A stretch of 64,000 bases of DNA from Methanotrichaceae archaeon (GCA_963748825.1 CAVVKN010000006.1:96001-160000); one strand, 5' to 3'. Positions 237 through 55,917 are shown, numbered from the stretch's first letter. The notes: generated by a model from the sequence alone, not told the origin. Program-made: numbers and translations.

Positions 237-332
237 CTGTTCAGGGCATCGGCCAGCAGCTCCACGGGGGCGACCAGGACGCTGAAGGTTTCGGGGAGCA
301 GGGAGACGGTCGGGTGGAGATCGATATCCATG
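237..332 (-). pseudogene. 5' fragment of RadA-like PolB2-operon gene (paralog of 10490-11002)
   Basis: MDIDLHPTVSLLPETFSVLVAPVELLADALN aligns with MDFELLPTVSLRSRSFNALTAPREMFIQALN; upstream 352-390 matches 11022-11058. Confidence 0.8.
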
Positions 333-351
333 ATAGGATATGGGTGGCTCT

Positions 352-390
352 GGGGATATGAGGGCGAGGCAAGGGGGCGGGGCGAAAGTG
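352..390 (-). promoter_or_regulatory. Conserved promoter of the RadA-like/PolB2 operon (CACTTTCG-N20-CTCATATC)
   Basis: GGGGATATGAGGGCGAG...GCGGGGCGAAAGTG shared with 11022-11058. Confidence 0.6.
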
Positions 391-469
391 AACGGGACGC
401 TGTTAGTTATTCTTGTCTCAATACTACGATAAAAAGAGCCAGCTCATCGCTGGCGTTTTCAAATATCTA

Positions 470-2161
470 TCAATCAGACTTAAGATTTGCAGCTTGATTC
501 ACCTGCCTCCCGCCTATATAAGTCGCTAAGACCTTTGGGTTGTCTTTGGAAAATTTATCCAATGGCACAGAATAAAGATCCTGGTCGTACACAACTATAT
601 CGGCTTTATAGCCAGGATATAGAACGCCGGTATCGTTTCTCGATGTGGTGGCCGTGCTGCCGATAGTGAAGCCGTGAACGACCTCTCTGACACTGAGGGG
701 CAAGTGCATTTTCGGATCTCCTCCGCCAGTTACTGCAACACTGATCACCATCGTGGCTGGAGAATATTCGGGAGGAGAAACGCTAAAATCTGTGCTGATT
801 CCGACTGGGATTCCGCTATCGATAAGTTTTTTTATGGGATACGCCTGTTCATTGTGTTTTCCGTAATAATAGGCAGTATCGTCTTCTACAGACCAAAACG
901 CAGGCTGGACAGTCATAGCGACATGGCCATCGAATTTTTTGATCCTTTCGATTTGCTCATCGTTAGGGAATCCCATATGTATCAGGGTATGAACTCCTGT
1001 GAGCTTACCTTTTTCGGCTACTACTTTATCGAGCGCGTCAAGTACCGCCTCGATAGCCAGGTCTCCCTGCACATGGTAGTGCATGTTCATCCCGTACTCT
1101 TCAACTTTCTCGACTATGCGTGTGAGGTTCTTCTCCGGTCCGCCTGTATCATTGGTATAAATTTCCTGAATACCATGGTTGCCCTGAAGATTTTGCCAGC
1201 TGGTCCAGGCTTGGCCTCCGGCAAAAGCTCCATCCACAAAGATCTTGCAGCCCAGAAATCGTACCATGTCGGTATCATTGCCTCTGTATTTTGCAGCGTC
1301 ATCTACATCACTCAAGTTAAATATCGTATAGCAGTAGTTGATCCGCAACGGCAGAGTTCCTTCTTTTTCCATCTCATAAAAAAGCTCGGGTCTCATAAAC
1401 CGCACGCCAGTTGCACCCATCAGGTCTACTGCCCCCGTATAACCGAGGGAGGACCAGCGTTTTAGCAGAAGAAGCGTACCTTTCTTTATGTCTTCACCAT
1501 CGAACATGGCGAACATTTTATTCCACGGCAGTATCATGGAAGATTCCCGTAGCATACCTGTAAGCCTGCCATCTTCTACACCCATCTTTCCTCCAATCGG
1601 CACGTTGGTAGCCGGAGTGAGCCCGATCAAGTTCATCGCAGCAGTATTAATGACCGCGTTATGTCCGAGTTTATCACCCAGGAATGCTGGCCGGTTGCCG
1701 GTCACTTTATCTATTTTAGCGAGATCTTCAAGAGACCAATTATCGTAATCTTGGAGAGAGAAGCCTGCCCCAAGGATCGTTCTGTTTCCCGGAATGGATT
1801 TGACTTTATCCGCCAGGACCTTTGCTATAGAATTCGAATCGTTGCAGCCTATCAGGTTCGCTCCCACATAGAAGAAGTACCCCGTTTCCATCAAGTGCAC
1901 GTGGCTATCAATAAAACCGGGATACGCAGCGGACCCATTTAGATCAATGATTGAAGCATCTTTATGCTGCTCTGCGCTGGCATTTATTGCTTTGACCACG
2001 CCGTTTATCACTAGAAGATTATCTACTTTTTTTTCTTCATCAATATAAATTGATCCGTTGGTGAAAAGCTGAACACTGTCATGCTCTGCGGCATTTCCGA
2101 GAAAAGGCCACAAGAAAAACAGGACTAAAATAATACTAAGAAAGCTCTCAATTTTTTTCAT
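470..2161 (-). CDS. Secreted amidohydrolase (YtcJ/amidohydro_3 family)
   Basis: 563 aa; signal peptide, PGFIDSHVH, KIFVDG, HVQGD, STDF metal-binding motifs. Confidence 0.9.
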   Translation of the reverse strand: MKKIESFLSIILVLFFLWPFLGNAAEHDSVQLFTNGSIYIDEEKKVDNLLVINGVVKAINASAEQHKDASIIDLNGSAAYPGFIDSHVHLMETGYFFYVGANLIGCNDSNSIAKVLADKVKSIPGNRTILGAGFSLQDYDNWSLEDLAKIDKVTGNRPAFLGDKLGHNAVINTAAMNLIGLTPATNVPIGGKMGVEDGRLTGMLRESSMILPWNKMFAMFDGEDIKKGTLLLLKRWSSLGYTGAVDLMGATGVRFMRPELFYEMEKEGTLPLRINYCYTIFNLSDVDDAAKYRGNDTDMVRFLGCKIFVDGAFAGGQAWTSWQNLQGNHGIQEIYTNDTGGPEKNLTRIVEKVEEYGMNMHYHVQGDLAIEAVLDALDKVVAEKGKLTGVHTLIHMGFPNDEQIERIKKFDGHVAMTVQPAFWSVEDDTAYYYGKHNEQAYPIKKLIDSGIPVGISTDFSVSPPEYSPATMVISVAVTGGGDPKMHLPLSVREVVHGFTIGSTATTSRNDTGVLYPGYKADIVVYDQDLYSVPLDKFSKDNPKVLATYIGGRQVNQAANLKSD

Positions 2162-2229: not shown

Positions 2230-2707
2230 GACCAATCCTTGAAAAATCTACCCGAAACCATCCAGCTCGTCCCCGTACCACGTAGCCCTGGCGCTCGGCT
2301 ACCTGCGGGCGGGCGACCTGCTGCGGGCCAAGGAGTACACCATGCAGGCTCTTGCCGCCGATCCCAGGAATCCCGTGGCCCTCAAAAACCTGGGCGCCAT
2401 CCTCGGCAAGGAAGGCAACAGCCTGCGGGCTCTCTACTATCTGCGCCGCTCCTACGAGATCGATCCCCTGGACCCGCAGACCGTGTACGGCCTCGCCTTC
2501 GCCCGTTGAACCGGAGACATGGAGCCGGCCCAGAAGCATTTCCAAAAGGTGCTGGAGATGGAGGCACCCGAGGAGCTGCGCGTTCTGGCCAGAGATGCAC
2601 TGCGCAAGATTGCGGCGCGAGAGTTCAAGGCCAGGGGGCCACGCATGGATATCGGGGTGGATCTGGGCGAGGAATGGGGGATGGCGGAGAGGCTGTTGCC
2701 GAAATAG
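2230..2707 (+). pseudogene. TPR-repeat protein remnant
   Basis: HVALALGYLRAGDLLRAKEYTMQALAADPRNPVALKNLGAILGKEG... TPR motifs, stop/frameshift near 2507, resumes MEPAQKHFQKVLEME; no 5' end. Confidence 0.75.
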
Positions 2708-3252: not shown

Positions 3253-3358
3253 TGCATGCGCATAGACGCCGCTTATTCTCTTCAATCCGGGTGCGCCTTT
3301 TATCTACCTTTTTAATATTCTATTTCCTGTGGAAACCGGAATCAGACGGCTCAAAGCA

Positions 3359-3402
3359 GTTCTATGATATTATTAAGAGTCTTAAGTAAGATGCCATAGA
3401 AC
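3359..3402. promoter_or_regulatory. Imperfect 12-bp inverted repeat (12-20-12) spanning the TATA box of the 3411 gene
   Basis: GTTCTATGATAT-N20-ATGCCATAGAAC; second copy at 18218-18261 with identical spacing. Confidence 0.6.
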
Positions 3403-3410
3403 TATATTGC

Positions 3411-3791
3411 ATGCACCGTACCCCCTCCGGCGATCGCCGCCAGGCCCTCCAGAAGGAAGCCCGGGAGCTGGCCAGGGACGCCCGAATCCTGCAGAAGGTC
3501 GCCCGTGCACCCGCGGCCCGCAGGGAGGCAGAGAGGCTGCAAGGAGAGGCGGAGGCGGCCCTGGCAGAGGCCGAGGCCCTCAAGCACCAGGCCAGGCTGG
3601 AGGATCTCACAGTATGGAAGATGGAGAAGGTCAAGCAGAGCCGAAAGGGCTCCAAGACCTACACCTACTGGATGGCCTCCTGGCGCGAGGACGGCAAGAC
3701 GCGCAATGTGCACCTGGGGAGCGCCAGGAAGATGGATGCCGAGGCGGCAAGGCAGAAGGCCAGGAAGATGAAGGCGGAAGCATTAGGATAG
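3411..3791 (+). CDS. Hypothetical coiled-coil plus beta-hairpin DNA-binding-like protein
   Basis: 126 aa; KTYTYWMASWREDGKTRNVHLGS motif; decayed copies at 18270-18315 and 51654-51790. Confidence 0.75.
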   Translation: MHRTPSGDRRQALQKEARELARDARILQKVARAPAARREAERLQGEAEAALAEAEALKHQARLEDLTVWKMEKVKQSRKGSKTYTYWMASWREDGKTRNVHLGSARKMDAEAARQKARKMKAEALG

Positions 3792-6268: not shown

Positions 6269-6494
6269 GGGGAGCTCTCCTCGGCGTAATTATCACATTA
6301 ATTCGCGATAAATCTATGGGTAACTCATTGCCTATTGATTAGTACTATTACACCCCAGAAGCGAATCTTCGTGGACCAGCCTGCAAAAGTACTGATAAAT
6401 GGTAAGTAAAATAGTTTCGATAGGATCTGTCCAGTATTATTGTCAGATCTATACGTAATCGTCTATATGATTCTTAAAGGGTGTATTATGTTCT

Positions 6495-6767
6495 ATGAGA
6501 TATCTGCTCCCAATCATGGCCGCTTGCATCCTGATGGCCTTCATGAACACGGCCTTTGCCATGGGCGAAGATATTTCGGATTTGGAGAAACTTATCTCCG
6601 GCAATGAAGATACGCGCATGAATGCCCAGGATCTGGCTTTCTTCCTTGCCACTCATAATTACAACGCTATGCCAAGGGATGGCTATGTGGAGCTGAATCT
6701 GAACTGCATAATCTACAAACTCATCCCCAACAGCGAAAAACCAGGATTATGTGACATAGAATACTGA
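6495..6767 (+). CDS. Small secreted hypothetical protein, copy 1
   Basis: Signal peptide; paralog of 7505-7789. Confidence 0.75.
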   Translation: MRYLLPIMAACILMAFMNTAFAMGEDISDLEKLISGNEDTRMNAQDLAFFLATHNYNAMPRDGYVELNLNCIIYKLIPNSEKPGLCDIEY

Positions 6768-6788
6768 ACTGGCAATTTGGAGGGATAT

Positions 6789-7064
6789 ATGATGACATCA
6801 AAAAGAAGGACTAACGACTTAATTGTATCGCAAATTTTGAAACTATGCGTGCCTGGTGCGAGCAAAACAAGGGTTGTGTATCAGGCCAATCTGAACTTCT
6901 TGACGGTAAATCCATATTTAAATAATTTGATAAAAAATGAATGCATTGAGGCAGTGCATGAGGGCTCCAGGGTTGTCTATAAAACTACGCCAAAAGGGAT
7001 GGATCTGAAAGAGAGATTTGAGCAGTTTCAGAGCGCGATAGGTGAGCTGTATGCATGTGTTTGA
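6789..7064 (+). CDS. Winged-helix regulator (COG3432-like), copy 1
   Basis: GASKTRVVYQANLNF...YKTTPKG. Confidence 0.85.
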   Translation: MMTSKRRTNDLIVSQILKLCVPGASKTRVVYQANLNFLTVNPYLNNLIKNECIEAVHEGSRVVYKTTPKGMDLKERFEQFQSAIGELYACV

Positions 7065-7203
7065 AGCCTGAGACCCTATGGAGCGAGAGTGCTGGTATAA
7101 TAGCAGTAACCAGCCGTTCTTGAGCTCCAATCCAAACCCACCTTCTTTTCTCCAACAGCTTACTTCATCAGGAATACCCTACGCCAGTGTAAAAAGAATA
7201 GCA

Positions 7204-7304
7204 GGAGCCAGCCGCAAAGGGAGTACGAGGGGGAGGCTGTCTCCATTCGAACAAATAGTAGTAATAGTTAAAAAGGATCACCCGTGCGTAGCGAAAGTGA
7301 TTTC
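7204..7304 (-). repeat. About 100-bp promoter-like repeat, copy 2
   Basis: Matches 5290-5388. Confidence 0.75.
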
Positions 7305-7504
7305 TAGCATCTTCCGCCGCCTTCTCCTCCAATGGGATGCCACGAAAGCCCGCCAGAAGTTCCCTAACAGAAAAATCTTTCCTTAATCCTATATAAAAAT
7401 ACTAATCAATGTTAAGGATAATTGTTTCGATAGGATCTGTCTATTATCCTGATCAGATCTAGACGTAATCATCTATATGATCCTCAAAGAGTACATTGTA
7501 CTCT

Positions 7505-7789
7505 ATGAGAGGGAACACGAAATATCTGCTGGCAATCATGGCCGCTTGCATCCTAATGGCCTTCATGAACACGGCCTTCGCCATGAATGAAGATATTTCG
7601 GATTTGAAGAAACTTATCTCTGTCAACGAAGATATTCGCATGAATTCCCAGGACCTGGCCTTCTTCCTTGCTACCCATAATTACAGCACCGTTCCCAAAG
7701 ATGGTTATGTAAATGTAGATCTGAACGGCAAGATCTGTAGACTCGTTCCCAATGGCGATAAGCCGGGATTATGCGATACATCATTCTAG
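7505..7789 (+). CDS. Small secreted hypothetical protein, copy 2
   Basis: Paralog of 6495-6767 (RMNSQDLAFFLATHNY). Confidence 0.75.
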   Translation: MRGNTKYLLAIMAACILMAFMNTAFAMNEDISDLKKLISVNEDIRMNSQDLAFFLATHNYSTVPKDGYVNVDLNGKICRLVPNGDKPGLCDTSF

Positions 7790-7805
7790 TCCAAGGAGCG
7801 GAATA

Positions 7806-8054
7806 ATGAAGAGAAACCGACAGGAAATAATCTCGCAAATACTGGAAATATGCATTAATGGAGCCAGTAAGACCAGAATTGTGTATCAGGCTAACCTCAA
7901 CTTCAAAATGGTAAATCCCTATCTGGATCTTCTGATTAAAAATGAGATGATACAGGTCAACGAAAAACAGGTTACGCTATACGAAACTACGCTGAAGGGC
8001 AAAAGTCTGCTGGAAAAAATGCAAAAAGTCCATGGTGAGCTATCTGAGTTGTGA
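7806..8054 (+). CDS. Winged-helix regulator (COG3432-like), copy 2
   Basis: MKRNRQEIISQILEICINGASKTRIVYQANLNF...YETTLKG. Confidence 0.85.
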   Translation: MKRNRQEIISQILEICINGASKTRIVYQANLNFKMVNPYLDLLIKNEMIQVNEKQVTLYETTLKGKSLLEKMQKVHGELSEL

Positions 8055-8087
8055 AGACCGGATCACTCACCAACCCACGCCGTCTCC

Positions 8088-10034
8088 CTATCCCGCTCCG
8101 AAAACAAACCCCACTTCCTTCCACGCCTTCTCCAGCAGCTTCCCGTAATACCCGGCATCGAACACCGACGCCGTCCTCTCCGGCTCCACCTCCCACTTTT
8201 TGGCATCCTTTATCACGTAGCCTATCTCCATTCCCGGTGCCAGGGGAATCCCTTGCTTCAGGTGAGCCTGCACCGCCGAGGCTTCAGCACACCTGCGAGA
8301 ATAGCTCAGCCTGCTAACCCTGCGATGAATGGCCAGCTCCCGGACGTCAGCCTCTCCCAGTTCCGCCATGTACCTTCTGGCAACGCCTCGGGCCCTGGGC
8401 TCTATCCACTTCAGCTCCTCCCGGCTCCTCGCTTCACCCAGGACCTCGAACAGCTCTTTCTGCATGCGGAGCACATATTCGGGCGTGTCTCCCTTGCGGG
8501 CCATCACGCCCCGGATCTTCATCTTGCCCGTGTCCAGCCGCCCAAAGTAGCGGTTGTAGGCACCCGAACCGTCAGCCATGGGCAGGAAGGCGATCCAGTC
8601 GTAGGAGTCCACCTCCGTCAGGATGCCTGTCTCCCTCTCCACGGTCTCCTTGAAGCTCGCTATGGGCTCGCCTATAACCCATAAACAGTCCACAATGCCA
8701 TGCAGAACCTCAAAGTTAATGTCCTCAGCCAGTTCCTTGATCTGCATGAGCAGCTCCCTGGAGATGCCTGTGATCCTCTCATGCACCTGTATCTGGCCGA
8801 ACTTGGCGTTCCTGTAGCCGGTGTAGCCGAAACAGGTTACCAGCATCCATTTCAGGACCGAGTCTATGCCGGCGTAATCCGGGTTGGTCTTCTTCAGCCT
8901 CTTGGTCTCAATGCGCAAATTGAGCAGCGAGGAGAGCACGGTGCTGAGAAAGCCCTTCAGCTCCGGGTGTTCGATGGTTTCTGGGGAGAGGTTGTACTTC
9001 ACGATGATCGAGGGGTACAGGGAGGTGAAGTCGATCTGGTGGACCTTCTCGTACACGCCCGGTTCAGGCTGGAAGATCATGCCTCCCTTGTCGCAGGCCC
9101 TCAGCTCGGAGATATTCCTCAGGCCCTCTGCGTCCCGTTTCCGAAAGGGCACGGCCACGCCCCGACGCAGCGCCTCGAAGACCTCGTAGCTGGAGATGAG
9201 CGTGCCTGGAGTGAAGCGGGAGGTGAGATTCGGGGAGAGGCCGGAGAGCCGGGAGGCCATGAGGACGCCCTTCAGGCCGCTCTCGGCATAGACGAAGCTC
9301 TTGGAGGTGTCTATCAGCACCCTGCCCTCGGGGATGAGAGCGCCGTCCTTATGGTTGACTTTTCCATAGCTCCAATAGGATTTGGAGGCCATCGGCTTGA
9401 AGAAGCCAGTGCGGCTGATGGTCGGCTCCAGGCCGTACCTCCTGGCCTTGCGAACTATGAGCGGAATCCAGGTATCGGCATTGGGGCAGAGAATCAAATC
9501 CGGATCATGGGCCTTGATCAGCTCCAGGAGATCGGAGAGGACCTGTCTCTCAGATCCTTCCAGCCTCCGCTTGCGGCCATTGAGGACCTCGACACGGGAG
9601 ATCTCTCTAGGCATAGAAGGATCTCCGGCCACCTTAAGCTCAAGGCTGGTCAGAGGGATCTCAAAATCTGGCGAGAACCGGGACTCGTCTCTGTCTCCAC
9701 AGGGGAAGAGGTCGTGCTCGGCCATGTAGCGCTGGTCCTGGCGGACGTCCACGTTATAGAGCTCGACCTGATGGTGGGTTTGGATCTCGATCTTCTCGGC
9801 TACTTTGCGGCTGGCGTAGATTCTGTGGCCCTGGAAGGTGCCGAAGATGGTTCTGAAGCTGCACTCCTCCGCCTTGAAGCGGTTCTCCAGGGCCTCGATC
9901 ATCTCCCTGTGAGCAGAAGGGTCCTTGAGGTGCATGTAGAACGAGGGAGGATAGGCGGCGCTGGCTTTGGTTAGTCCTCTCTCCCGGCCCCACAGCTCCA
10001 CACAGCCCTTGTAGTAAGAGTCGAAAATCCACAT
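8088..10034 (-). CDS. polB2: Family B DNA polymerase, PolB2 group
   Basis: 648 aa; motif A DFTSLYPSII, motif B KWMLVTCFGY, altered motif C HGIVDCL (vs YGDTDS); no recognisable Exo motifs. Confidence 0.9.
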   Translation of the reverse strand: MWIFDSYYKGCVELWGRERGLTKASAAYPPSFYMHLKDPSAHREMIEALENRFKAEECSFRTIFGTFQGHRIYASRKVAEKIEIQTHHQVELYNVDVRQDQRYMAEHDLFPCGDRDESRFSPDFEIPLTSLELKVAGDPSMPREISRVEVLNGRKRRLEGSERQVLSDLLELIKAHDPDLILCPNADTWIPLIVRKARRYGLEPTISRTGFFKPMASKSYWSYGKVNHKDGALIPEGRVLIDTSKSFVYAESGLKGVLMASRLSGLSPNLTSRFTPGTLISSYEVFEALRRGVAVPFRKRDAEGLRNISELRACDKGGMIFQPEPGVYEKVHQIDFTSLYPSIIVKYNLSPETIEHPELKGFLSTVLSSLLNLRIETKRLKKTNPDYAGIDSVLKWMLVTCFGYTGYRNAKFGQIQVHERITGISRELLMQIKELAEDINFEVLHGIVDCLWVIGEPIASFKETVERETGILTEVDSYDWIAFLPMADGSGAYNRYFGRLDTGKMKIRGVMARKGDTPEYVLRMQKELFEVLGEARSREELKWIEPRARGVARRYMAELGEADVRELAIHRRVSRLSYSRRCAEASAVQAHLKQGIPLAPGMEIGYVIKDAKKWEVEPERTASVFDAGYYGKLLEKAWKEVGFVFGAG

Positions 10035-10038: not shown

Positions 10039-10272
10039 CTATTTTTCTCGCCCCATCTCTAGCTCCCTCAACAGCTCCACCAGCACCGAAAACACAGCCG
10101 CCTCCAGCGGGTCATCAAGTGCATAGAAAGCCTCACTGGAGTGCTTCTTGGCCATCTCTGCCACCTTTTGCCCGTAAACCTGGTCCTCCTTCTTCAGGGC
10201 CCGGCTGGCCTTCAGCCATCTGGCAGAGACATCCTTCACGCCCATCCTCACGCTCTCGAAACTTCGTCCCAT
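10039..10272 (-). CDS. Small helical PolB2-associated protein
   Basis: 77 aa MGRSFESVRMG...ALKKEDQ...AKKHSSEAF...DPLEAAVFSVLVE, directly upstream of polB2. Confidence 0.8.
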   Translation of the reverse strand: MGRSFESVRMGVKDVSARWLKASRALKKEDQVYGQKVAEMAKKHSSEAFYALDDPLEAAVFSVLVELLRELEMGREK

Positions 10273-10274: not shown

Positions 10275-10493
10275 CTACTCCCCCAGGCAGAACGTCGCCG
10301 GCCACCGCCCTTCCTCGCGCGCCTCGTGCCCGCTCTCCTCCAGCCTGCTTTTTATCATCTCTTCCACCTCTCCTGGCCGAGCGTGGAAGACCTCCGCCAG
10401 TATCTCCTTGGCCGTCTCCAGCTCCTGGGCTCTGACACTGATCGCCCGCCTGGGCTCAATCGGCCGGGCCTGCTGCTTCCAGGGCCACCTCAT
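10275..10493 (-). CDS. 72-aa hypothetical protein of the PolB2 operon
   Basis: ATGA overlap with the upstream gene; homologs at 18614-18853, 21008-21059, 41563-41608 and 43038-43171. Confidence 0.75.
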   Translation of the reverse strand: MRWPWKQQARPIEPRRAISVRAQELETAKEILAEVFHARPGEVEEMIKSRLEESGHEAREEGRWPATFCLGE

Positions 10494-11002
10494 GAGTAAG
10501 CCTCCAGCGTTCTCTGGTTCTCCCTCGCCCGCGGGTGGGCTTTGGCCACCAGCCGTGGAGTTTCACGGGGGCCTTCTTCAAAGTAGAACACCCGGTCGGC
10601 ATTCTGCACCAGGTCCTCGAAGAAAGGGTCAATCCCCGGGGCGTAGAGCAGCACGGCGGCCTCTTTTGCGGCATCGCTCAGTGCATGGGAGACGTACTCG
10701 GTCATCTCTCGGGCATCCTCGTAGAGGAGAGGGTCATGCTCGATGAGAATCAACGAATGATGGGCCTCCTCCAGGATGGTCATGAGCTGGAAGACGGTAA
10801 ATCCCCGGCGGATTTCCAGGACCTCAAACCTGCGGTCCAGCCTGGAAAGGATGGCGGAGGAGTTGCCGGTGACGTAGAGCACCTTGAACCGTTGCAGGTT
10901 AAGGTTGCGATTCAGGGCCTGGATGAACATCTCCCTGGGAGCCGTCAGGGCATTGAAGGACCGGGACCGGAGGGAGACCGTGGGAAGAAGCTCGAAGTCC
11001 AT
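10490..11002 (-). CDS. Inactivated RadA/RecA-like protein of the PolB2 operon
   Basis: 170 aa; IRRGFTVFQLMTILE resembles the RadA RAF..Q region; no Walker A; first gene of the operon. Confidence 0.7.
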   Translation of the reverse strand: MDFELLPTVSLRSRSFNALTAPREMFIQALNRNLNLQRFKVLYVTGNSSAILSRLDRRFEVLEIRRGFTVFQLMTILEEAHHSLILIEHDPLLYEDAREMTEYVSHALSDAAKEAAVLLYAPGIDPFFEDLVQNADRVFYFEEGPRETPRLVAKAHPRARENQRTLEAYS

Positions 11003-18613: not shown

Positions 18614-18853
18614 CTAATCGAATCTCCGCCTCACAGCTGCCCCTCCCAGGCAGAACGTCGCCGGCCACCGCCCCACCTCGCGCGCCTCGTGCCCGCTCTC
18701 CTCCAGCCTCCTCTTTATCATCTCCTCCACCTCGCCGGGCCGGGTGTGGAAGACCTCTGCCAGGATCTCCTTGGCGGTCTGCAGCTCGATGACCCTGCTT
18801 ACCATCGGCCTGGGCTCGATTGGCCTGGCCTGCCGTCTCCAGGGCCACCTCAT
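18614..18853 (-). CDS. Paralog of the 72-aa PolB2-operon protein (79 aa)
   Basis: MRWPWRRQARPIEPR...AKEILAEVFHTRPGEVEEMIKRRLEESG...RWPATFCLG. Confidence 0.65.
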   Translation of the reverse strand: MRWPWRRQARPIEPRPMVSRVIELQTAKEILAEVFHTRPGEVEEMIKRRLEESGHEAREVGRWPATFCLGGAAVRRRFD

Positions 18854-19150
18854 GAGTATGCCTCCAGCGTCCTCTGCGCTCCCGGCATCCTCGCCTCGGC
18901 CTTCCTGACTTTGGCCGGAGCCTGCTCGCCGTAGATGCAGAACACCAGGGTCGGCCAGCTCGGTCAGCTTCTGCAGGTGGGGGTCCAGCACCGGCGCGTA
19001 GAGCAGGATGGTGGCCTCCCTGGAGGTCTGCCTGAAGGCCTGGGCCAGGTACTCGACCATTCTCCGCCGGCATCCTCGTAGAGCAGGGGGTCGTGCTCCA
19101 CGATCGGGAAGCTGTGGTGGTTCTCCTGTAGGAATGGTCATGAGCTGGTA
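18850..19150 (-). pseudogene. Decayed 3' half of a RadA-like PolB2-operon gene
   Basis: Frameshifted QLMTI...EHDPLLYEDA...EATILLYAP...QRTLEAYS. Confidence 0.8.
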
Positions 19151-19277
19151 GACTGAGGGAGAACATGTAAAAGTATTTATTTATGTAAGATGACTAGAAC
19201 AAGCAAAGATACAGGACCAGGATGAATTTATAGAAAATTCGGCACACTACCTGGATGATTAACGATGGAGGGGTTTT

Positions 19278-20972
19278 GTGAAACCATTATGTTTAGTCTT
19301 TTTAATAGGCATGCTGATTTTATCTTCATCAGGATGCTCAAAAAGTATCGACAAAAATCAAAGTCAGCTCGAAGGATACCCGATTGCTTCCGATGTTTTT
19401 ACGACGCTCCAGATGACGGTCGTGCCTGACTTAATACCTTCGGGTTCGGAGACGGTTCTTCCTTATGAGATTTCAAAATACAAGCAAAACGGCTATGCTA
19501 ACTGGAGTTATGGACCCGGCATCGATTCTGTAAAGCGGCTCGACATTATGCCGACTAATTATAGTGGTGCATCAGCCACTAATTCTACAAGACTTTTGAG
19601 TTTCTTTGCCATAACCGACATCCATATCACCGACAAAGAATCTCCTGCTCAAGCGATCTACGAGGGCTACAAAGGCGGTTCTTCTTCGGCATATTCACCG
19701 GTCATGCTGTATACAACTCAGGTTCTCAACGCAGCCGTCCAGACGATAAACGCCATTCACAAACAAAATCCTTTTGATTTCGGTATATCTCTGGGCGATA
19801 CATGCAACAGCATTCAGTACAACGAACTAAGATGGTATATCGATGTCCTTGACGGCAAGAATATAAATCCTGATTCCGGTGCCAAGGATGATCCAATCCC
19901 GGGACCTTATAACGATTATCAGGACGAATACAAGGCAGCAGGGCTTAATAAGACGATCAATTGGTATCAGACTCTCGGCAACCACGATCATTTCTGGATG
20001 GGCTTTTTGCCGCCCAATGATTATCTCCGACAGAATGTAACCGGTAAAGATATACTCAACCTAGGTAATCCGTTCATCGACCCTCTCGGCCTGGATAGTC
20101 GAGGCTTTTACATGGGCTCAATAGACGGCCGGTCGCCTTACGGTGACATTATTGGTATTGGGCCTGCCAAAGACTTCACAATACCTCCGAAGGTACTTGT
20201 GGCCGATCCGAACCGCCGTTCACTATCGAGAGAAGAGTGGATAAGCGAATTTTTTAATACTTCTTCAAGTCCGAAGGGACATGGATTCAATCAATCTAAC
20301 GTAAAAACGGGATTCGCATGCTATACTTTTGAGCCGAACTCGACGAATTTACCGATCAAGGTTATCGTGCTCGACGATACCCAAAGGAACGATGACCCCA
20401 ACGATCCCGATACGCTCGGCTATGGAAATGGCTCTCTCGGCTATGGGCACGGTTCTCTTGACAGTGAGCGCTATAACTGGCTCGTAAGTGAACTTGATAA
20501 GGGTCAGACTGAAGGTAAGCTTATGATCATCGCTGCGCACATACCTATAGGCGTCGAACCAGCAGGTTCCATGATGGGTTGGAACCCAGCCGCTGAAGCA
20601 GAGCTGATTGCCAAACTGCATACATATCCGAATCTAATCATGTGGATCGCAGGACATCGTCATCTCAATACTGTTACCGCATTTAAATCACCGGATGATG
20701 CCCGTCCTGAACTCGGATTCTGGGAGATTGAAACCTCATCATTAAGGGATTTCCCTCAGCAGTTGCGCACTTTCGAGATTGTCCGCAACAGCGATAATAC
20801 GGTTTCAATCTTTACGACAGACGTTGATCCAGCGGTCAAAGACGGGTCGCTTGCTGCGATATCGCGTTCTTATGCTGTCGCGGCTCAGCAGCTATTCAAC
20901 AATTCGATAGGTCTGCTGCCTACTGGTTCGTACAATGCAGAGCTTGTCAAGCAATTGCCTCCGGAAATATAA
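19278..20972 (+). CDS. Exported metallophosphoesterase (TIGR03768/RPA4764-like)
   Basis: Signal/lipoprotein-like N-terminus; DIH, GD, GNHD, AHIP, GHRH motifs. Confidence 0.88.
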   Translation: MKPLCLVFLIGMLILSSSGCSKSIDKNQSQLEGYPIASDVFTTLQMTVVPDLIPSGSETVLPYEISKYKQNGYANWSYGPGIDSVKRLDIMPTNYSGASATNSTRLLSFFAITDIHITDKESPAQAIYEGYKGGSSSAYSPVMLYTTQVLNAAVQTINAIHKQNPFDFGISLGDTCNSIQYNELRWYIDVLDGKNINPDSGAKDDPIPGPYNDYQDEYKAAGLNKTINWYQTLGNHDHFWMGFLPPNDYLRQNVTGKDILNLGNPFIDPLGLDSRGFYMGSIDGRSPYGDIIGIGPAKDFTIPPKVLVADPNRRSLSREEWISEFFNTSSSPKGHGFNQSNVKTGFACYTFEPNSTNLPIKVIVLDDTQRNDDPNDPDTLGYGNGSLGYGHGSLDSERYNWLVSELDKGQTEGKLMIIAAHIPIGVEPAGSMMGWNPAAEAELIAKLHTYPNLIMWIAGHRHLNTVTAFKSPDDARPELGFWEIETSSLRDFPQQLRTFEIVRNSDNTVSIFTTDVDPAVKDGSLAAISRSYAVAAQQLFNNSIGLLPTGSYNAELVKQLPPEI

Positions 20973-41429: not shown

Positions 41430-41608
41430 CGCTGGACTCCCTACCTGCAGATGATGATGGGGCTGGCAAACCTCTGGTGTTCTGCATCTACGATGAGCAG
41501 GCTAAAGGCCGGAAGGCCTAGGAGAAGATGCCGGGAGACCAGAGAACGCTGGAGGCATACTCTTGAGATGGCCCGGGAGGCACAAGTCCAGTCCGATCGA
41601 GCCCAGCG
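41430..41608 (+). pseudogene. RadA-like 3' end plus 5' end of the 72-aa gene
   Basis: ...DQRTLEAYS then RWPGRHKSSPIEPS. Confidence 0.75.
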
Positions 41609-41660
41609 ATGACGCCGTCTCTGAACTCACTATCTTTTTCGTTAGCATGACCAAAAAACG

Positions 41661-42362
41661 CTATTTGACCTCATATGCGATGATGTCGGCAACGAATGGC
41701 CTAGTGCGGCTCACAGAATTGCCCTGTATTCTTATCTGAGCCCTTTGATCATCAATCTTCCCCTGCAAGATTGTTCCCTTTTCTATCGAAGAGAAGCTGA
41801 CCATATCGACCCCCGGAGCGATCTGCTGTTTAGTCCAGAGCATATTGCGGACGTTGGCCTCGGCAGAATGCGTGTCCGTCAGTGTGCCTTGGAAGCTGCT
41901 GGCACTGCCGTTAAGCTGCCAATACTGCAACAGAACACAGCCGCCCGACGGATGGGAGAAGCTCCCTCCCGAATAGATCGAAAAATCAGCATCCATGGGA
42001 TTTGCCGGATCCAGATCGGTATCAATTTCCAGGTGTAATGGGTTTGATTCCGAAAAAGAACCACATATTTCTGGGCGGTATACTGAAATCTTTACATTTC
42101 GTTGGTAGTTTCCGGTATTCTGATAAACGAGATTGCCGTATGCATCGTAGTCCCAATATTCGATGCTCACAGTTGCAACACCGTCGTACTCTGTTTGTGA
42201 CAAGGTCTTCGTGCCTTCATTAGCACTGTCCTTATTCAGAGCTTGCGTGACTTGCGCATTAATATTTGGATCGTTGTACGGTGTCCATATCTGCGCACTA
42301 GCTGAACAAATAATCACAAAAGCAAACGTGATTATCAAGAAAACAATCAACCTTCCATCCAT
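41661..42362 (-). CDS. Secreted hypothetical protein
   Basis: Signal peptide from MDGRLIVFLII; AT-richer codon usage. Confidence 0.7.
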   Translation of the reverse strand: MDGRLIVFLIITFAFVIICSASAQIWTPYNDPNINAQVTQALNKDSANEGTKTLSQTEYDGVATVSIEYWDYDAYGNLVYQNTGNYQRNVKISVYRPEICGSFSESNPLHLEIDTDLDPANPMDADFSIYSGGSFSHPSGGCVLLQYWQLNGSASSFQGTLTDTHSAEANVRNMLWTKQQIAPGVDMVSFSSIEKGTILQGKIDDQRAQIRIQGNSVSRTRPFVADIIAYEVK

Positions 42363-42481
42363 TTTCTCTTCCTCTATGTCGGACTCCATCTCTATGTGGG
42401 CAAGGATGCCTTTTTCCAATGCACGCATCGAATTATTTACGACAGCGCACGCTCCCCTCCAGCGTTCCACCCTGGCCACCT

Positions 42482-42979
42482 CTACTTCTTAAGCTCAATG
42501 GCATACTCACAGTATGGATCGCCGGTGCACATCCTCTTCATGTACCTCATGGTGTACCGTGGATTCAGGCTTTCGACTGAGCTTTGGCAAAAGGCCTGGC
42601 AGTGTGCAGGCGTTCCTGCAGTCGACCAGTACCCGATGTTCCGGTGAGCATTCAGCATCGGACAGCCAGTTATCTTGCCAATTACCCGTCTCTCATCGGC
42701 CTCTACGATCTCGCCCATAAGCTCAGGCCCCAGAATTATAGCAGAGATAATGTCCAAAGTGCTATCGATTTCTGTAGCATTGCTCGCGGGAAGGCCCAGG
42801 GATTCCGCCAATGCTTTTGATTCCTTGCCTCCCTCACTCATGATCACATTCCAAATTTCATCGATCTTATCGCCGATAATCTGCCTGACGAGCATGTCAT
42901 AGACTACCGATTGACTATTTGCAGCCTTGGTGGCGATCTCCCAGCGCACCTCTGCAGGAATATCTTTTATGCTGACCAT
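42482..42979 (-). CDS. V4R/ATC-hydrolase-like Cys-rich ligand-binding protein
   Basis: GCPM...HCQAFC...LNP...MCTGDPYCEY. Confidence 0.7.
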   Translation of the reverse strand: MVSIKDIPAEVRWEIATKAANSQSVVYDMLVRQIIGDKIDEIWNVIMSEGGKESKALAESLGLPASNATEIDSTLDIISAIILGPELMGEIVEADERRVIGKITGCPMLNAHRNIGYWSTAGTPAHCQAFCQSSVESLNPRYTMRYMKRMCTGDPYCEYAIELKK

Positions 42980-43037
42980 AGCAATACCTCACTGCAAATA
43001 TACTGCCGTTAATAATTATATATCTTCTTCCACAGGA

Positions 43038-43171
43038 CTAAAGGAGATCCTGGCAGAGGTCTTCGGTGCCCGGCCCAGCGAGGTGGAGGAGATGATCCAG
43101 AGGTGGCTGGAGGAGAGCGGGATAGAGGAGCGCGAGGAGGGCCGTGGCCGGCGACGTTCTGCCTGGGCGAG
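43038..43171 (+). pseudogene. 3' part of the 72-aa PolB2-operon gene
   Basis: KEILAEVFGARPSEVEEMIQRWLEESG...(frameshift)WPATFCLGE. Confidence 0.8.
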
Positions 43172-43240
43172 CAGGCAGAGATGTGAGAAGTCCGAGGTTC
43201 TGAAAATCAACCAGGCCCTGTCCTCATCATGTTGAAAATT

Positions 43241-54211: not shown

Positions 54212-54325
54212 TAGAACCTGATGGGCCTGGTGGCTCTGGAGCGCAGGCGGAGAGAAGAGGGCCAGCGGTTCTGGTATAATGCCTACTGGAAGACCGATCC
54301 ACCAAATTAGGCGGGCGGGATCCTT

Positions 54326-54761
54326 TCATAATTTTTCGTGGTACTCAGACGCCAAAAGGGATATTTTGTCGCCTATGGGAATGGTCAAGTCGTTATCCTG
54401 CAGCCGGGCTACGCCTTCCTCAATGTAGTTGATCCAGATCTTCAGTTCCGCCTCGCCTGCCTTGCGGTACTGCGCCTCTATCTCCCGATAGACTGCATCG
54501 AAGTCCAGGCCTGCAATGACCAGATTGGAGCAGTCCGGAGCGTCTCCCGGCCGGTTGGCGATCAGCTTCATGATGAAGATGTCCTCCAGGGAGGCATCCC
54601 TGATCACCAGGCTGCCGAAGGACCTGATTCTTGTAGCCCTCTGCCATATGGCCTCGGAGAGGTCGAAGTCGTAAGAGATCCGCTCTGCGAAGACGTCCAG
54701 ATTGCGCCCGCCCTTCACTGCCAGCCGCTTGACAGCTCGTTAATCTCCTGTTTGATATCAT
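54326..54761 (-). pseudogene. DUF6036-like nucleotidyltransferase, catalytic N-terminus missing
   Basis: C-terminal half LDVF...SLEDIFIMKLIANRPGD; 5' MISNRR is out of frame and the G-G/DxD region is absent. Confidence 0.5.
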
Positions 54762-55623
54762 AGAGATCCGTCCTGTCCTCGATGTCTTCCAGGGTTGGAT
54801 AGCCTTTGATACTCTCGCCCTGCAGCACTGCTTTCAGATCCTTCATCATGGGATGATCGATAGCCTCTAATTTATCCCTGTTCTTCAGATAGAACAGCAC
54901 GCAAAAAAGCTTCTGGGAGAACTCCCATGCCGAGTCCAGGGAGTGGATGAAGACCTCCTGGATGGACAGCTCCCTCCTGGGCAGGGTGTAGTAGTAATCC
55001 CTCAGACCCAGCTCGATCCCGTAATCCTCGTAGGCGGAAAAGGAGGTGAATGTGGCATCCTGCGGCCTCAGGCTCTTGAAGAGCACGCTGGTCTCGTAGC
55101 TCTTGATGAGCAGGGCCTCACGGGGCACGAGGCGCAGGACCTGGAATTCCAGCAGAGCGGTTACGAAATCCTTCAGCTTCGGCCAGATGATGTAGTTGAA
55201 AGAATAGAGGTAGGCTTTGCCCTGCATGGAGTGGCTGACGATGCCCAGGCGCAAGAAGCCCTGCAGATAGTAGTAGACGGTATCGCTGGAGATGCCAGTC
55301 ACTCCGGCCAAGGTTTCCAGGCTCTTGGGCTGACTGTCCAGCCGGGAGAGGAACTCCACTCTCCGGCCGGAGAGGATCTCCTGCAGGGGAGAGGCGCGAT
55401 GTGAGTAGTAGAGGCGCTTGAAGGCCTCCGCTGGGGACGTGGGGGCCAGCAGTATCTCGCCACCCGCCCGCTCCACCAGGCCAATATCTTGCAGGCTGGT
55501 GATGATGCGGGAGATGGAACCTTTTAAGAGGCCCAGCTCCTTCTGGAGGCCACTGGGATGCACTGGCCCCTGGGAGCGGGTGATGAGGATCAGGGCGTGG
55601 ACTTCGTTCTCGCTCAGGCGCAT
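54715..55623 (-). CDS. Double wHTH regulator (partner of the DUF6036-like NTase)
   Basis: SGLQKELGLLKGSISRIITSL and SLETLAGVTGISSDTVYYYL HTHs; TSFSAYEDYGI. Confidence 0.7.
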   Translation of the reverse strand: MRLSENEVHALILITRSQGPVHPSGLQKELGLLKGSISRIITSLQDIGLVERAGGEILLAPTSPAEAFKRLYYSHRASPLQEILSGRRVEFLSRLDSQPKSLETLAGVTGISSDTVYYYLQGFLRLGIVSHSMQGKAYLYSFNYIIWPKLKDFVTALLEFQVLRLVPREALLIKSYETSVLFKSLRPQDATFTSFSAYEDYGIELGLRDYYYTLPRRELSIQEVFIHSLDSAWEFSQKLFCVLFYLKNRDKLEAIDHPMMKDLKAVLQGESIKGYPTLEDIEDRTDLYDIKQEINELSSGWQ

Positions 55624-55917
55624 TGTCTTAATAGAAAGTGAACTAAATTATATAGTATTATCCCTGCTTTAAGACATTAGCCTTCACCAAATACACTACC
55701 GTCAAGTGCATCCGGTTGCAGAGCCGGAAAGCCTGGGCGCGGGCGGCCTGCTGGCGTGGAGTGGAGCTGGCGGACATCCGGGTCCGACTGCGGGAGCGGC
55801 GACAGTCTGCGCGGGGCGAGGACGCAGCGCGGCAGATATCCAGGCGAGCTGGGGTGGGAGGAGCCGTCATCTACGTTAGGCAAAATTTATAATAGATAGA
55901 TGGACGGATAAACGTGT

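What the first reader, a model, noticed from the sequence alone, without database searches (positions are those of the whole stretch)
237..55880. Dispersed PolB2-cassette 'scaffold' whose fragments bracket acquired genes: candidate gene-capture/shuffling system
Seen: one intact PolB2 operon (8088-11058), and pieces of its first two genes at 237-390, 18614-19150, 21008-21350, 41430-41608 and 43038-43171. Companion genes also recur in pieces: the 3411 family at 18218 and 51654, the 56-aa gene at 49255 and 51807, a third family at 49000 and 55690, and the TPR gene at 113 and 2230. These GC-rich pieces repeatedly sit next to AT-richer, intact cargo genes, and I saw no TIRs, target duplications or integrase at those junctions. 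Known: archaeal PolB2 is usually encoded with an inactivated RadA and a small helical protein, and Sulfolobales Dpo2 is linked to damage-induced mutagenesis. Inference: either an unrecognised multicopy mobile element has inserted and decayed repeatedly, or the repeats act as homology anchors through which foreign DNA is captured, possibly by PolB2-dependent template switching or end joining.
Basis: partly seen in the sequence, partly recalled or inferred. Interest (0 to 1): 0.85.

Follow-up and report, generated by a model that had tools for sequence, protein, structure and literature searches.

The report
Decayed PolB2-operon copies in Methanothrix
The scattered pieces are real, but they look like dead, frameshifted leftovers of extra copies of a known DNA-damage polymerase operon lying in the changeable part of a repeat-rich archaeal genome, not like a machine for capturing genes.

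Summary
The window holds one intact iRadA-like / B / PPB2-like / PolB2 operon (8088-11058, minus strand). All five listed pieces of its first two genes are there.

The pieces of the iRadA-like gene are pseudogenes. They carry frameshifts and stops, show no codon-position signal, and have indels that are mostly not multiples of three. They belong to a relic lineage marked by one shared +1 insertion, present in several copies in at least four Methanothrix species.

Such pieces are genome-wide and genus-wide:
- 23 loci on 10 contigs in this genome.
- iRadA-like matches in 38 of 41 genus genomes, PolB2 matches in 37 of 41, many partial or with stops.

One clean case of genes inserted into a relic exists: 41612-43040 splits an A'-B' copy. 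Contigs of three independent studies support its right junction.

I found no recombination signature: no shared end motifs, no integrase, transposase or Cas1 tied to the junctions, and no tRNA att repeats. The genome is repeat-rich throughout.

Best reading: passive relics of duplicated or transferred mutasome cassettes in flexible DNA. A dedicated capture system is not supported.

The parts
8088..10034 (-). PolB2 (648 aa), intact
   Evidence: NCBIfam NF004416 equivalog, 884.1 bits, cut-off 516. Pfam DNA_pol_B. Strong third-position bias of substitutions, 594/114/171.
10039..10272 (-). Gene C (77 aa), PPB2-like by position and size only
   Evidence: Reading frame shown. No Pfam, NCBIfam or PADLOC hit. 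Substitutions 131/36/19 by codon position. An 89% identical paralogue lies at C6:29571-29786.
10275..10493 (-). Gene B (72 aa), an extra small gene between the iRadA-like gene and C; a Methanothrix-specific family
   Evidence: 708 clusters of about 70-80 aa hypothetical proteins, those named being from Methanothrix. Coding periodicity 248/120/122. Stand-alone paralogues on about 10 contigs. B-like genes on three IMG/VR contigs.
10490..11002 (-). Gene A (170 aa), iRadA-like; conserved upstream region runs to 11058
   Evidence: Operon position matches the published iRadA-PPB2-PolB2 order (PMC11791011, section 3.1). The AF2 model is an alpha/beta fold (pLDDT 61.8). Foldseek gives weak P-loop NTPase matches, with Rad51 at ranks 30 and 40. 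No family hit.
233..392 (-). Relic: upstream region plus 5' part of an A-type gene (operon positions about 10911-11058)
   Evidence: It overlaps by about 86 bp (81% identity) with the relic at C6:93503-93898, which lies 2.3 kb to the left, outside the window. An MFS-type transporter gene lies between them.
18618..19153 (-). Relic: frameshifted A' (from about residue 69) plus an intact B' ORF (18614-18853)
   Evidence: A' has no codon periodicity (181/250/252); B' has it (219/119/115). Groups with copies from G015, G016, G001 and G037.
21012..21366 (-). Relic: A' with an in-frame stop, a deletion and the shared +1 insertion, plus the first codons of B'
   Evidence: 93% identical to C6:93503-93722. 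No codon periodicity, 350/341/304. In the G000-only subclade.
41430..41611 (+). Relic: left half of a split A'-B' copy (3' end of A' and start of B')
   Evidence: Preceded by a 63-bp piece resembling the Mmp4 gene (41367-41429 against 45433-45492, 82.5%) and a single CRISPR repeat at 41330-41366. Absent from a variant contig form in runs X1 and X6.
41612..43040 (-). Inserted DNA of 1429 bp with two genes (41661-42479, 42482-42979); it replaces 30 bp of the relic
   Evidence: Almost no nucleotide match in 30 relatives (one 66-bp hit, G004:C53). Contigs of three studies cover it; X1 record 4 and X3 record 13 also run on into the B' piece. One paralogue at C22:183545-184036 (53%).
43041..43174 (+). 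Relic: right half of the same split copy (3' two-thirds of B', frameshifted near its end)
   Evidence: Lies 56 nt from the edge of the GNAT-Cache block that is conserved in G011, G013, G004 and G015, none of which has the B' piece beside it.
19278..20972 (+). Metallophosphoesterase-domain gene lying between the 18.6k and 21.0k relics
   Evidence: Pfam Metallophos. Only fragmentary matches among the five closest relatives, at G012:C3:221347-221995; one search also places 3411 and PolB2 pieces at G012:C3:215118-216437 and 220648-220747.
3297..3791 (+). '3411 family' gene (126 aa) with about 110 bp of conserved upstream sequence; many copies
   Evidence: 1474 clusters, those named being from Methanothrix, some carrying PF20586. 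The Atlas finds a DUF6788 cluster at score 0.85, a lead only. Present on 8 IMG/VR contigs, beside a wHTH gene on two of them; two of them carry TerL and at least one an ArdC-like gene and a tyrosine integrase.
6335..8100 (+). Two tandem copies of a pair: a 90-aa gene plus a winged-helix (HTH_45) gene. This stretch is absent between gene 5861-6268 and PolB2 in G016 and G001
   Evidence: Pfam HTH_45. G016:C23 and G001:C39 have the 5861-6268 gene directly abutting the 3' end of PolB2. About 14 copies of the wHTH gene in this genome.
2261..2598 (+). Frameshifted small TPR gene, a multicopy module that lies upstream of relic-lineage A copies in G016, G001 and G037
   Evidence: TPR_17 at 2342-2509. 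Neighbourhoods.

Best explanation
The window carries one working copy of the known archaeal PolB2 'mutasome' operon. Its gene order is iRadA-like A, an extra small gene B, PPB2-like C, then PolB2. It also carries five short, dead leftovers of paralogous A-B modules.

Methanothrix genomes hold several lineages of this cassette:
- An operon-I lineage, orthologous in five species.
- A second lineage. In this genome it is split into A-B-C at C6:28842-29786 and a frameshifted PolB2 at C13:7158-8940.
- A relic lineage, inactivated by an old +1 insertion.

Shown: copies of these lineages were multiplied within genomes, then eroded by deletions and interrupted by later insertions.

Inferred:
- The copies were spread by segmental duplication, by transfer between relatives, or homogenised by gene conversion.
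- The pieces themselves do nothing.
- They sit beside variable genes because both accumulate in the same flexible, slightly AT-richer, recombination-prone DNA.
- Dead DNA tolerates insertions, which is why an inserted gene pair can sit inside a relic.
- The gene pair at 41612-43040 most likely entered by illegitimate or homology-facilitated recombination.
For: - Pseudogene status of the A' pieces: frames broken; no codon periodicity and mostly non-triplet indels (77 against 10, and 80 against 18); copy-specific indels and stops.
- A shared +1 insertion in 9 of 12 A-type sequences that cover the site, from G000, G015, G016 and G037.
- Tree: an operon-I clade from five species; a relic clade with a G000-only subclade (21k, 41k, C6:93.5k, C5:47.7k) and a cross-species subclade holding 18.6k.
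- Spread: 23 loci on 10 contigs. iRadA-like matches in 38 of 41 genus genomes and PolB2 matches in 37 of 41, many partial or with stops.
- The genome is repeat-rich overall: 17.1% of bases have a non-self hit against 21.4% in the window. There are 233 repeat families, most of whose top members are fragments.
- The relics lie outside the long syntenic block 21841-37874, in a stretch where blocks shared with five relatives are at most about 3 kb.
- No recombination hallmarks.
- Erosion is ongoing: an indel variant lacking 41233-41632 in runs of two studies.
Against: - Dead fragments that persist in several copies across species are unusual for prokaryotes, which tend to delete junk.
- Four G000 copies cluster together without shared flanks. 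Either dead DNA was copied or it was homogenised, and I did not identify the mechanism.
- The patch 41296-41632 strings together a CRISPR repeat, a 63-bp piece resembling Mmp4 and an A' piece. That looks like filler DNA from break repair.
- PolB2 fragments across the genus are biased to the C-terminal ~100 residues. I explain this only by co-duplication with the neighbouring wHTH pair, seen once at C17:57700-58650.
- No listed contig bridges the left junction A'|cargo (41611/41633).
- The flank GC test does show a modest association with AT-richer DNA.
Confidence: 0.6

Rival explanations
1. The pieces are remnants of a discrete but unrecognised integrative element (provirus- or plasmid-like). 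It would be a block of roughly 3-10 kb, in the order 3411 gene, wHTH pair, PolB2 operon, small TPR gene. It would have integrated many times and decayed.
For: - The same modules recur together, in the same relative order, at C9:239.6-240.7k, C17:57.7-59.2k, C5:47-51k, C18:116-124k and C25:70-77k, and in relatives such as G016:C251.
- The 3411, wHTH and B-like genes occur on IMG/VR contigs. L024 and L026 carry TerL, L026 also an ArdC-like gene and a tyrosine integrase, and L034 carries a match to the L026 TerL.
- A fragment of that integrase type lies at C6:32480-32679, 3 kb from the second A-B-C copy.
- A tRNA-Gly sits at C6:86707-86779, where synteny breaks.
Against: - iRadA and PolB2 were not found on IMG/VR contigs (0 confirmed of 7 and of 3 candidate stretches). 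These single-protein scans find close relatives only.
- That TerL occurs in 4 of 41 genus genomes, not in G000, and on contigs other than the iRadA hits.
- No partial tRNA copies that could serve as att sites.
- No integrase in the window.
- In complete genomes all modules are chromosomal and dispersed, none on the second replicon of G005.
- Operon I has a conserved neighbour on its PolB2 side in three species.
Confidence: 0.22
2. This is active gene capture. The dispersed A/B repeats serve as homology anchors (Campbell-type or double-crossover exchange) or as preferred templates or targets of a break-repair process with template switching. That process might involve the PolB2 mutasome, and it would bring in and shuffle genes.
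For: - One clean insertion splits a relic.
- Two further gene-bearing segments lie between overlapping direct partial copies: 18.6k/21.0k at 84.5% identity, and C6:93.5k/window 0.2k at 81%. The 18.6k and 21.0k copies belong to different subclades, as expected if two different copies were brought together.
- The patchwork at 41296-41632.
- A small TPR module at C21 is present as two complementary pieces in permuted order around a two-gene segment.
- Three of the five window pieces lie within about 500 bp of the edge of a block conserved in other species.
Against: - The number of cases is tiny, and the region is flexible throughout, so adjacency is confounded.
- No microhomology or motif recurs at five boundaries.
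- The flanking copies are 16-19% diverged, so the events are old or unrelated.
- 'Cargo' genes such as the MFS-type transporter (GC3 0.75, 94% identical in G037) are not foreign-looking.
- The repeat density of the flanks is not above random (0.22 against 0.17, P 0.15).
- Nothing links PolB2 itself to the events.
Confidence: 0.08
3. Part of the pattern is an assembly artefact. The genome is a 25-contig assembly, probably from a metagenome, and repeats could have caused chimeric joins or collapsed arrays.
For: - The CRISPR repeat at 41330-41366 occurs once in the whole assembly, yet in all four laid runs the same repeat forms arrays with different spacers. A collapsed array here is plausible.
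- No listed contig bridges 41611/41633, and runs X1 and X6 show another join.
Against: - Contigs of independent studies reproduce the cargo: at about 98% identity X1 record 4 spans 41633-43070 and X3 record 13 spans 41633-43794, both running into the B' piece, and X6 record 19 covers 41633-42369.
- The pieces are diverged (66-93%), not identical repeats that confuse assemblers.
- Equivalent pieces exist in complete genomes G005, G032 and G039.
Confidence: 0.07

Closest known systems
Archaeal PolB2 / Dpo2 operon (iRadA - PPB2 (arCOG07300) - PolB2), the proposed translesion 'mutasome' (PMC4104785, passages read; PMC11791011, abstract and section 3.1 read)
   Same: - A PolB2-type family B polymerase (NF004416 equivalog).
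- It is preceded, in the same orientation, by a small gene of about 77 aa and a 170-aa alpha/beta protein with no detectable ATPase motifs.
- Extra stand-alone copies of the accessory genes are reported for haloarchaea (PMC4104785), as seen here at C6:28842-29786.
- Frequent transfer of PolB2 among archaea is proposed in PMC11791011.
   Different: - A fourth gene (B, 72 aa) sits between the iRadA-like and the PPB2-like gene. [quoted passage not shown]
- B is a large Methanothrix-only family that also occurs on viral contigs.
- Neither paper, in the parts I read, mentions many dead fragments per genome. A term search of PMC11791011 found no 'Methanothrix', 'Methanosaeta', 'paralog' or 'pseudogene'. 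Its supplementary files could not be seen and may list Methanothrix operons.
SSV-type 'suicidal' integrases and 'gene capture in archaeal chromosomes' (PMC7253208, abstract seen in a search listing only; She et al. 2001, recalled and not read)
   Same: Two pieces of one gene bracket foreign genes in an archaeal chromosome, and the element becomes trapped.
   Different: - There the split gene is the integrase itself, the break is at a defined att site, and a tRNA gene is the usual target.
- Here the split genes are iRadA-like/B pseudogenes.
- There is no integrase hit in the window, no tRNA and no att-like repeat.
Mutagenic polymerase operons carried on mobile elements (rumAB, mucAB; mentioned in PMC11791011, section 3.4, passage seen)
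   Same: A damage-inducible translesion polymerase cassette that exists in several copies and appears to move between genomes.
   Different: No carrier element was identified here, and most copies are dead.
Ordinary pseudogene and repeat decay in IS-rich, flexible regions of prokaryotic genomes
   Same: - Fragmented multicopy families. Of the 14 largest families in this genome, 11 have at least half of their members shorter than a third of the longest.
- IS elements lie nearby (13290-15101, 16591-17820).
- Synteny breaks at the same places.
   Different: The family is a cellular repair operon, not a transposon. One dead lineage is shared by several species in several copies each.

Membership tests
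PolB2 mutasome operon | PolB2-clade family B DNA polymerase | tested here: met
   NF004416 equivalog, E 6.1e-266, 884.1 bits, cut-off 516. The replicative PolB models score far below their cut-offs.
PolB2 mutasome operon | First aspartate of the DxD active-site motif substituted (true of most PolB2) | tested here: inconclusive
   Judged by eye on the translation: the stretch that should hold motif C lacks the first Asp. No alignment to a reference PolB was made.
PolB2 mutasome operon | Small helical PPB2 (arCOG07300) gene next to polB2 | tested here: inconclusive
   Gene C (77 aa) has the right place, size and orientation and strong coding constraint. No profile for PPB2 was available in the libraries searched.
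PolB2 mutasome operon | Inactivated RadA/Rad51-fold protein (iRadA) | tested here: inconclusive
   AF2 model from 8 sequences: mean pLDDT 61.8, a beta-alpha-beta fold. Foldseek best E 1.2e-3 (FtsY), Rad51 at ranks 30 and 40, RadA helicase at rank 50, TM about 0.4. A profile search of PDB sequences found nothing relevant. PMC4104785 says some iRadA are recognisable only by HHpred.
PolB2 mutasome operon | Genes adjacent and in the same orientation | tested here: met
   A stop overlaps B start. The B-C gap is 2 nt and the C-PolB2 gap is 4 nt.
SSV-type integrase gene capture | Bracketing pieces are the N- and C-terminal parts of a tyrosine integrase | tested here: not met
   PF00589 search of the whole genome: 3 matches, none on contig C6. 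The bracketing pieces align to the A and B genes.
SSV-type integrase gene capture | att direct repeats, usually in a tRNA gene | tested here: not met
   No tRNA in the window. The nearest is tRNA-Gly at C6:86707-86779, with no partial copy on C6 between it and the window's relics. No shared motif at the junctions.
IS / MITE / DNA transposon | Terminal inverted repeats, target-site duplication, linked transposase | tested here: not met
   Both ends of five inserted segments were compared on both strands: only matches of 8-12 nt at chance level. The two IS in the window are separate units. Fragment ends differ from copy to copy.
Casposon / self-synthesising element | Cas1 integrase beside a protein-primed PolB, with TIRs | tested here: not met
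   Cas1 matches only on C24, C12 and C10. The polymerase is the PolB2 equivalog.
Tailed provirus of Methanothrix (IMG/VR contigs L024, L026, L034) | Terminase, integrase and structural genes linked to the cassette | tested here: not met
   No TerL match in G000, and TerL in 4 of 41 genus genomes. iRadA and PolB2 were not found in IMG/VR. Only the 3411, wHTH and B-like genes are shared.

The most novel reading that the evidence does not exclude
Short stretches of dead cassette DNA and of other genes are copied into break sites, and genes are brought in with them. The process would be a repair pathway with template switching or end joining that is unusually active in Methanothrix, conceivably tied to its multicopy PolB2 mutasome modules. 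The relic-bracketed genes and the patchwork at 41296-41632 would then be its footprints. The other genes whose pieces are scattered are Mmp4, TPR and the 3' end of PolB2.
Probability: 0.08. Interest if true: 0.8.

Novelty: new variant of a known kind. Interest (0 to 1): 0.35.

Why it matters
The PolB2 mutasome is a recently recognised archaeal damage-tolerance system.

This locus adds three points about Methanothrix:
- The operon carries an extra, lineage-specific small gene (B), whose relatives also occur on viral contigs.
- The cassette exists in several lineages per genome.
- One dead lineage has survived in multiple copies across species.

These points are useful for anyone annotating these globally important methanogens, because most 'iRadA', 'B' and 'PolB' hits in their genomes are fragments. 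They also bear on how repair operons spread.

The finding does not by itself reveal a new mechanism. The gene-capture idea remains a low-probability lead that long-read strain comparisons could test cheaply.

Tried and rejected
- Earlier notes of this scan: nothing on this genome, on these words or on this sequence.
- Rfam over the window: only one CRISPR repeat.
- PADLOC on A, B, C, five neighbouring or inserted genes, the gene at 5861-6268 and the 3411 protein: no hit. I therefore dropped the idea of a defence island for these genes.
- Profile search of PDB sequences with the A alignment: only chance-level rows.
- Fold search of the A model: P-loop-like, but not specific.
- Viral-contig scans for A and PolB2: no confirmed relative.
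- tRNA-derived att repeats: none.
- Shared motifs at cargo ends: none.
- Flank repeat density: not different from random.
- Literature search on Methanothrix pangenome, islands and mobile elements: the 12 papers listed (of 915 holding at least 3 of the 4 terms) include none on this topic.
- Parts of the laid stretch without contig cover were not interpreted.
- I considered and rejected a programmed frameshift in the relic A' genes, because each copy carries further private indels and stops.
- I did not fold B, C or the 3411 protein, and I did not run a complex prediction.

Full report
WHAT IS THERE

The window is G000:C6:96001-160000 of a 2.88-Mb, 25-contig assembly. Database homologues of two of its gene families that carry a name are from Methanothrix.

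On the minus strand at 8088-11058 lie four tightly packed genes:
- A: 10490-11002, 170 aa.
- B: 10275-10493, 72 aa.
- C: 10039-10272, 77 aa.
- A 648-aa family B polymerase: 8088-10034.

The polymerase matches the NCBIfam PolB2-type equivalog NF004416 with 884 bits against a cut-off of 516. This is the known arrangement of inactivated RadA, small helical PPB2 and PolB2 (PMC4104785, passages read; PMC11791011, abstract and section 3.1 read), with one extra gene, B.

The identities of A and C rest mainly on position:
- A has no family hit.
- A gives only a moderate AlphaFold model (pLDDT 61.8).
- The model's best structural matches are weak P-loop NTPases, with Rad51 at ranks 30 and 40.
- C has no family hit either.

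THE PIECES ARE REAL

Identities to the operon or to each other are 66-88%.

Of the 'companion' repeats:
- The two '3411' pieces and the 56-aa gene pair are confirmed.
- The 'third family' is only weakly similar.
- The small TPR gene at about 2342-2509 is confirmed.
- The piece at about 113 is not TPR.

THE PIECES ARE DEAD

Translation shows the A-type parts switching frame repeatedly and carrying stops.

A codon-position test on all BLASTN matches gave these substitution counts:
- PolB2: 594/114/171, strong third-position excess.
- C: 131/36/19.
- B: 248/120/122.
- B' at 18.6 kb: 219/119/115.
- A' at 18.6 kb: 181/250/252, no excess.
- A' at 21 kb: 350/341/304, no excess.

The A' indels are mostly not multiples of three: 77 against 10 at 18.6 kb, and 80 against 18 at 21 kb. 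So B-type sequences still evolve as genes, and the A' parts do not.

An alignment with copies fetched from relatives shows one +1 insertion shared by 9 of the 12 sequences that cover the site: four from this genome, two from G015, two from G016 and one from G037. Each copy also has further private indels and stops.

A tree of the shared region separates three groups:
- A tight operon-I clade from five species.
- The second lineage.
- A relic clade, which has a G000-only subclade (21k, 41k, C6:93.5k, C5:47.7k) and a cross-species subclade that holds the 18.6-kb copy.

Dead DNA has therefore either been copied within genomes or been homogenised by gene conversion. I could not tell which. The copies share no flanks, and their ends differ from copy to copy, as independent erosion would give.

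HOW WIDE

- In this genome BLASTN finds 23 A/B/C loci on 10 contigs. Two are intact: the window operon and an A-B-C cluster at C6:28842-29786.
- A second PolB2 at C13:7158-8940 is broken into two frames, and shorter PolB2 pieces lie on several other contigs.
- Across the genus, the A protein finds matches in 38 of 41 genomes searched, with up to nine matches per genome, many partial or with stops.
- PolB2 finds matches in 37 of 41, again with many short fragments. These are biased towards the C-terminal ~100 residues.
- The complete genomes G005, G032 and G039 also have dispersed pieces, all on the chromosome.

So the pattern is neither local nor an artefact of this assembly.

CONTEXT

The genome is repeat-rich:
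- 17.1% of its bases have a non-self BLASTN hit, against 21.4% for the window.
- There are 233 repeat families. The A/B/C family, with 20 intervals, is the fifth largest.
- Judging from the N-terminal sequences printed, the others include transposases and a toxin-antitoxin-like module. Those names are my reading, not a family search.
- In 11 of the 14 largest families, at least half of the members are shorter than a third of the longest.

The window mixes core genes with variable DNA:
- Core genes: a TBP paralogue, the Fpo-type complex at 27.4-37.9 kb, deoxyhypusine synthase and Mmp4.
- Against five close relatives, 21841-37874 is one long syntenic block.
- In 1-20000, no shared block listed exceeds about 3 kb.
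- Upstream, synteny breaks right after a tRNA-Gly at C6:86707-86779.

The relics lie in the non-syntenic parts or at their edges. For example, B' at 43041-43174 is 56 nt from the edge of a GNAT-Cache block that four other species have without the relic beside it.

The 2-kb flanks of the pieces are slightly AT-richer than random sites (48.8% against 50.8% GC). The nominal P of 0.008 is overstated because the loci are clustered.

DO THE PIECES BRACKET ACQUIRED GENES?

One case is clean. The pieces 41431-41611 and 43041-43174 are collinear halves of a single A'-B' copy. Thirty bases of that copy are replaced by 1429 bp carrying two genes. These two genes have almost no nucleotide match in 30 relatives.

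Metagenome contigs bear on this case:
- Contigs from three independent studies contain the inserted segment at about 98% identity.
- Two of them (X1 record 4, X3 record 13) run on into the B' piece, and X3 record 13 continues into the next gene.
- No listed contig bridges the left junction.
- In two studies a variant joins about 41232 directly to 41633. It lacks a 400-bp patch made of a CRISPR repeat, a 63-bp piece resembling Mmp4 and the A' piece.
- The A' piece is at least 14% diverged from every other copy in the assembly, so a deletion in the variant is the simpler reading. The direction is not proven.

The other 'brackets' are different. They are overlapping direct partial copies:
- 18.6k and 21.0k, 84.5% identical, from different subclades, around a metallophosphoesterase-domain gene.
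- C6:93.5k and window 0.2k, 81% identical over 86 bp, around an MFS-type transporter gene. That gene is 94% identical in G037 and has native-like codon composition.

Relative to G016 and G001, the two tandem pairs of a 90-aa gene and a wHTH gene at 6335-8100 are an insertion between gene 5861-6268 and PolB2.

Comparing both ends of five such segments on both strands gave only chance matches of 8-12 nt.

MOBILE-ELEMENT TESTS

- No tRNA in the window.
- No tyrosine recombinase on contig C6 with PF00589.
- Cas1 only on other contigs.
- No partial tRNA-Gly copies.
- The two IS elements in the window are ordinary and separate.

Some of the companion genes are virus-linked. The '3411' gene is a real gene family of about 130 aa (1474 clusters, some carrying PF20586). 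It occurs on 8 IMG/VR contigs, followed by the wHTH gene on two of them (L024, L026). Those two carry a large terminase, and at least L026 carries an ArdC-like gene and a tyrosine integrase. B-like genes occur on three IMG/VR contigs, one of which (L034) has a match to that terminase.

Against a viral origin of the cassette itself:
- A and PolB2 were not found on viral contigs. These scans reach close relatives only.
- G000 has no match to that terminase. It was found in only 4 of 41 genus genomes, on contigs other than those with A.

So the cassette does not map to that provirus type. Provirus relics do share the same flexible DNA, including an integrase fragment at C6:32480-32679.

MECHANISM: WHAT IS SHOWN AND WHAT IS INFERRED

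Shown:
- There are several cassette lineages.
- One of them was inactivated before several species separated, or was exchanged among them.
- Copies multiplied within genomes.
- Copies are being eroded by deletion and interrupted by insertion.

Inferred:
- The spread was by segmental duplication and/or transfer between relatives, with gene conversion among copies.
- The relics are passive.
- They co-occur with variable genes because both collect in flexible, weakly constrained DNA, where insertions into dead sequence cost nothing.

I put this reading at about 0.6. A discrete unrecognised element carrying the block (3411 gene, wHTH pair, PolB2 operon, TPR gene) is the main rival, at about 0.2. 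The modules do recur in the same order at several loci and in relatives.

An active capture or template-switching process is not excluded, at about 0.08. The points in its favour are the patchwork at 41296-41632, the permuted TPR pieces around two genes on C21, and the persistence and copying of dead DNA. Nothing ties such events to PolB2, and no junction signature recurs.

COMPARISON WITH WHAT IS KNOWN

The intact locus is a member of the PolB2 operon kind, with an interspersed extra gene. The literature I read calls such interspersion rare (PMC11791011, section 3.1).

The closest published 'gene capture' in archaea is the SSV-type integrase that splits itself on integration (PMC7253208, abstract seen in a search listing only; the 2001 paper is recalled, not read). 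Its defining features were tested here and not met: integrase halves, an att site and a tRNA target.

I found no paper on dispersed PolB2-cassette fragments in Methanothrix:
- Search 1, on PolB2, archaea, RadA and operon.
- Search 2, on Methanothrix, pangenome, genomic islands and mobile genetic elements.
- A term search inside PMC11791011.

Supplementary tables could not be seen.

VERDICT

The 'capture system' half is unsupported.

This is a moderately interesting feature of Methanothrix genome plasticity and of PolB2-operon evolution. It is not a new kind of system on present evidence.

Noticed in passing
window 41330-41366: A single CRISPR repeat (Rfam CRISPR-DR60, 46.4 bits), found only once in the whole assembly. 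In all four metagenome runs laid, the same repeat forms arrays with different 35-40-nt spacers, so an array may be collapsed here. The repeat ends in the usual ATTGAAAC-type handle on the plus strand (recalled), which suggests that Rfam's minus-strand call is the wrong orientation. G011:C102 has an array of this repeat.
   Followed up: partly
window 41367-41429 against 45433-45492: A 63-bp piece 82.5% identical to the interior of the methanogenesis-marker Mmp4/MtxX gene (45164-45967). It sits between the CRISPR repeat and the A' relic. Relatives G012:C1:785-788k, G016:C183 and G013:C318 carry clusters of Mmp4 gene pieces.
   Followed up: partly
window 46059-46177: Member of a repeat family of about 100-200 bp with 64 intervals in this genome (median 197 bp) and many copies in relatives. 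The longest member encodes an 85-aa protein that looks like HicB to me; no family search was run.
   Followed up: no
G000 C21:78683-81283: The small TPR module of window 2261-2598 is present as two complementary pieces in permuted order (the 3' part first, the 5' part second). They lie around a two-gene minus-strand segment, next to a gene that looks like a GmrSD-type nuclease. A piece matching the end of the ArdC-like gene of viral contigs L024 and L026 abuts it. The gene names are read from the sequences and were not searched.
   Followed up: partly
window 16568-17884: An IS of the ISAzo13 (DDE_Tnp_ISAZ013) family, with 99% identical copies at C6:49367-50683 and C23:174255-175273. It splits a repeat-protein gene into ORFs 16277-16579 and 17854-18141.
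   Followed up: partly
window 3832-4425: A TATA-binding protein gene that is one of four intact paralogues (86-94% identical at C12, C10 and C16), plus a fragment on C5. In G012 a TBP copy lies directly upstream of an A-B-C cluster.
   Followed up: partly
G000 C13:7143-8958: The second PolB2 paralogue (84-85% identical) is split into ORFs of 527 and 107 aa that overlap in different frames. It is either a real frameshift or an assembly error. It has no A-B-C upstream and a B' piece downstream.
   Followed up: partly
window 16040-16167: A module of about 125 bp repeated in this genome and in relatives. In G015:C70 and G001:C39 it lies 45-48 bp beyond the 3' end of '3411' genes. No coding signal.
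   Followed up: no
window 54220-56417: A block about 81% identical to C21:85164-86874 (a TrmB/MarR-type regulator and neighbouring genes). Its 139-aa gene (55918-56337) and the short stretch 54220-54297 also have relatives just upstream of the second A-B-C cluster, at C6:27843-28510.
   Followed up: no
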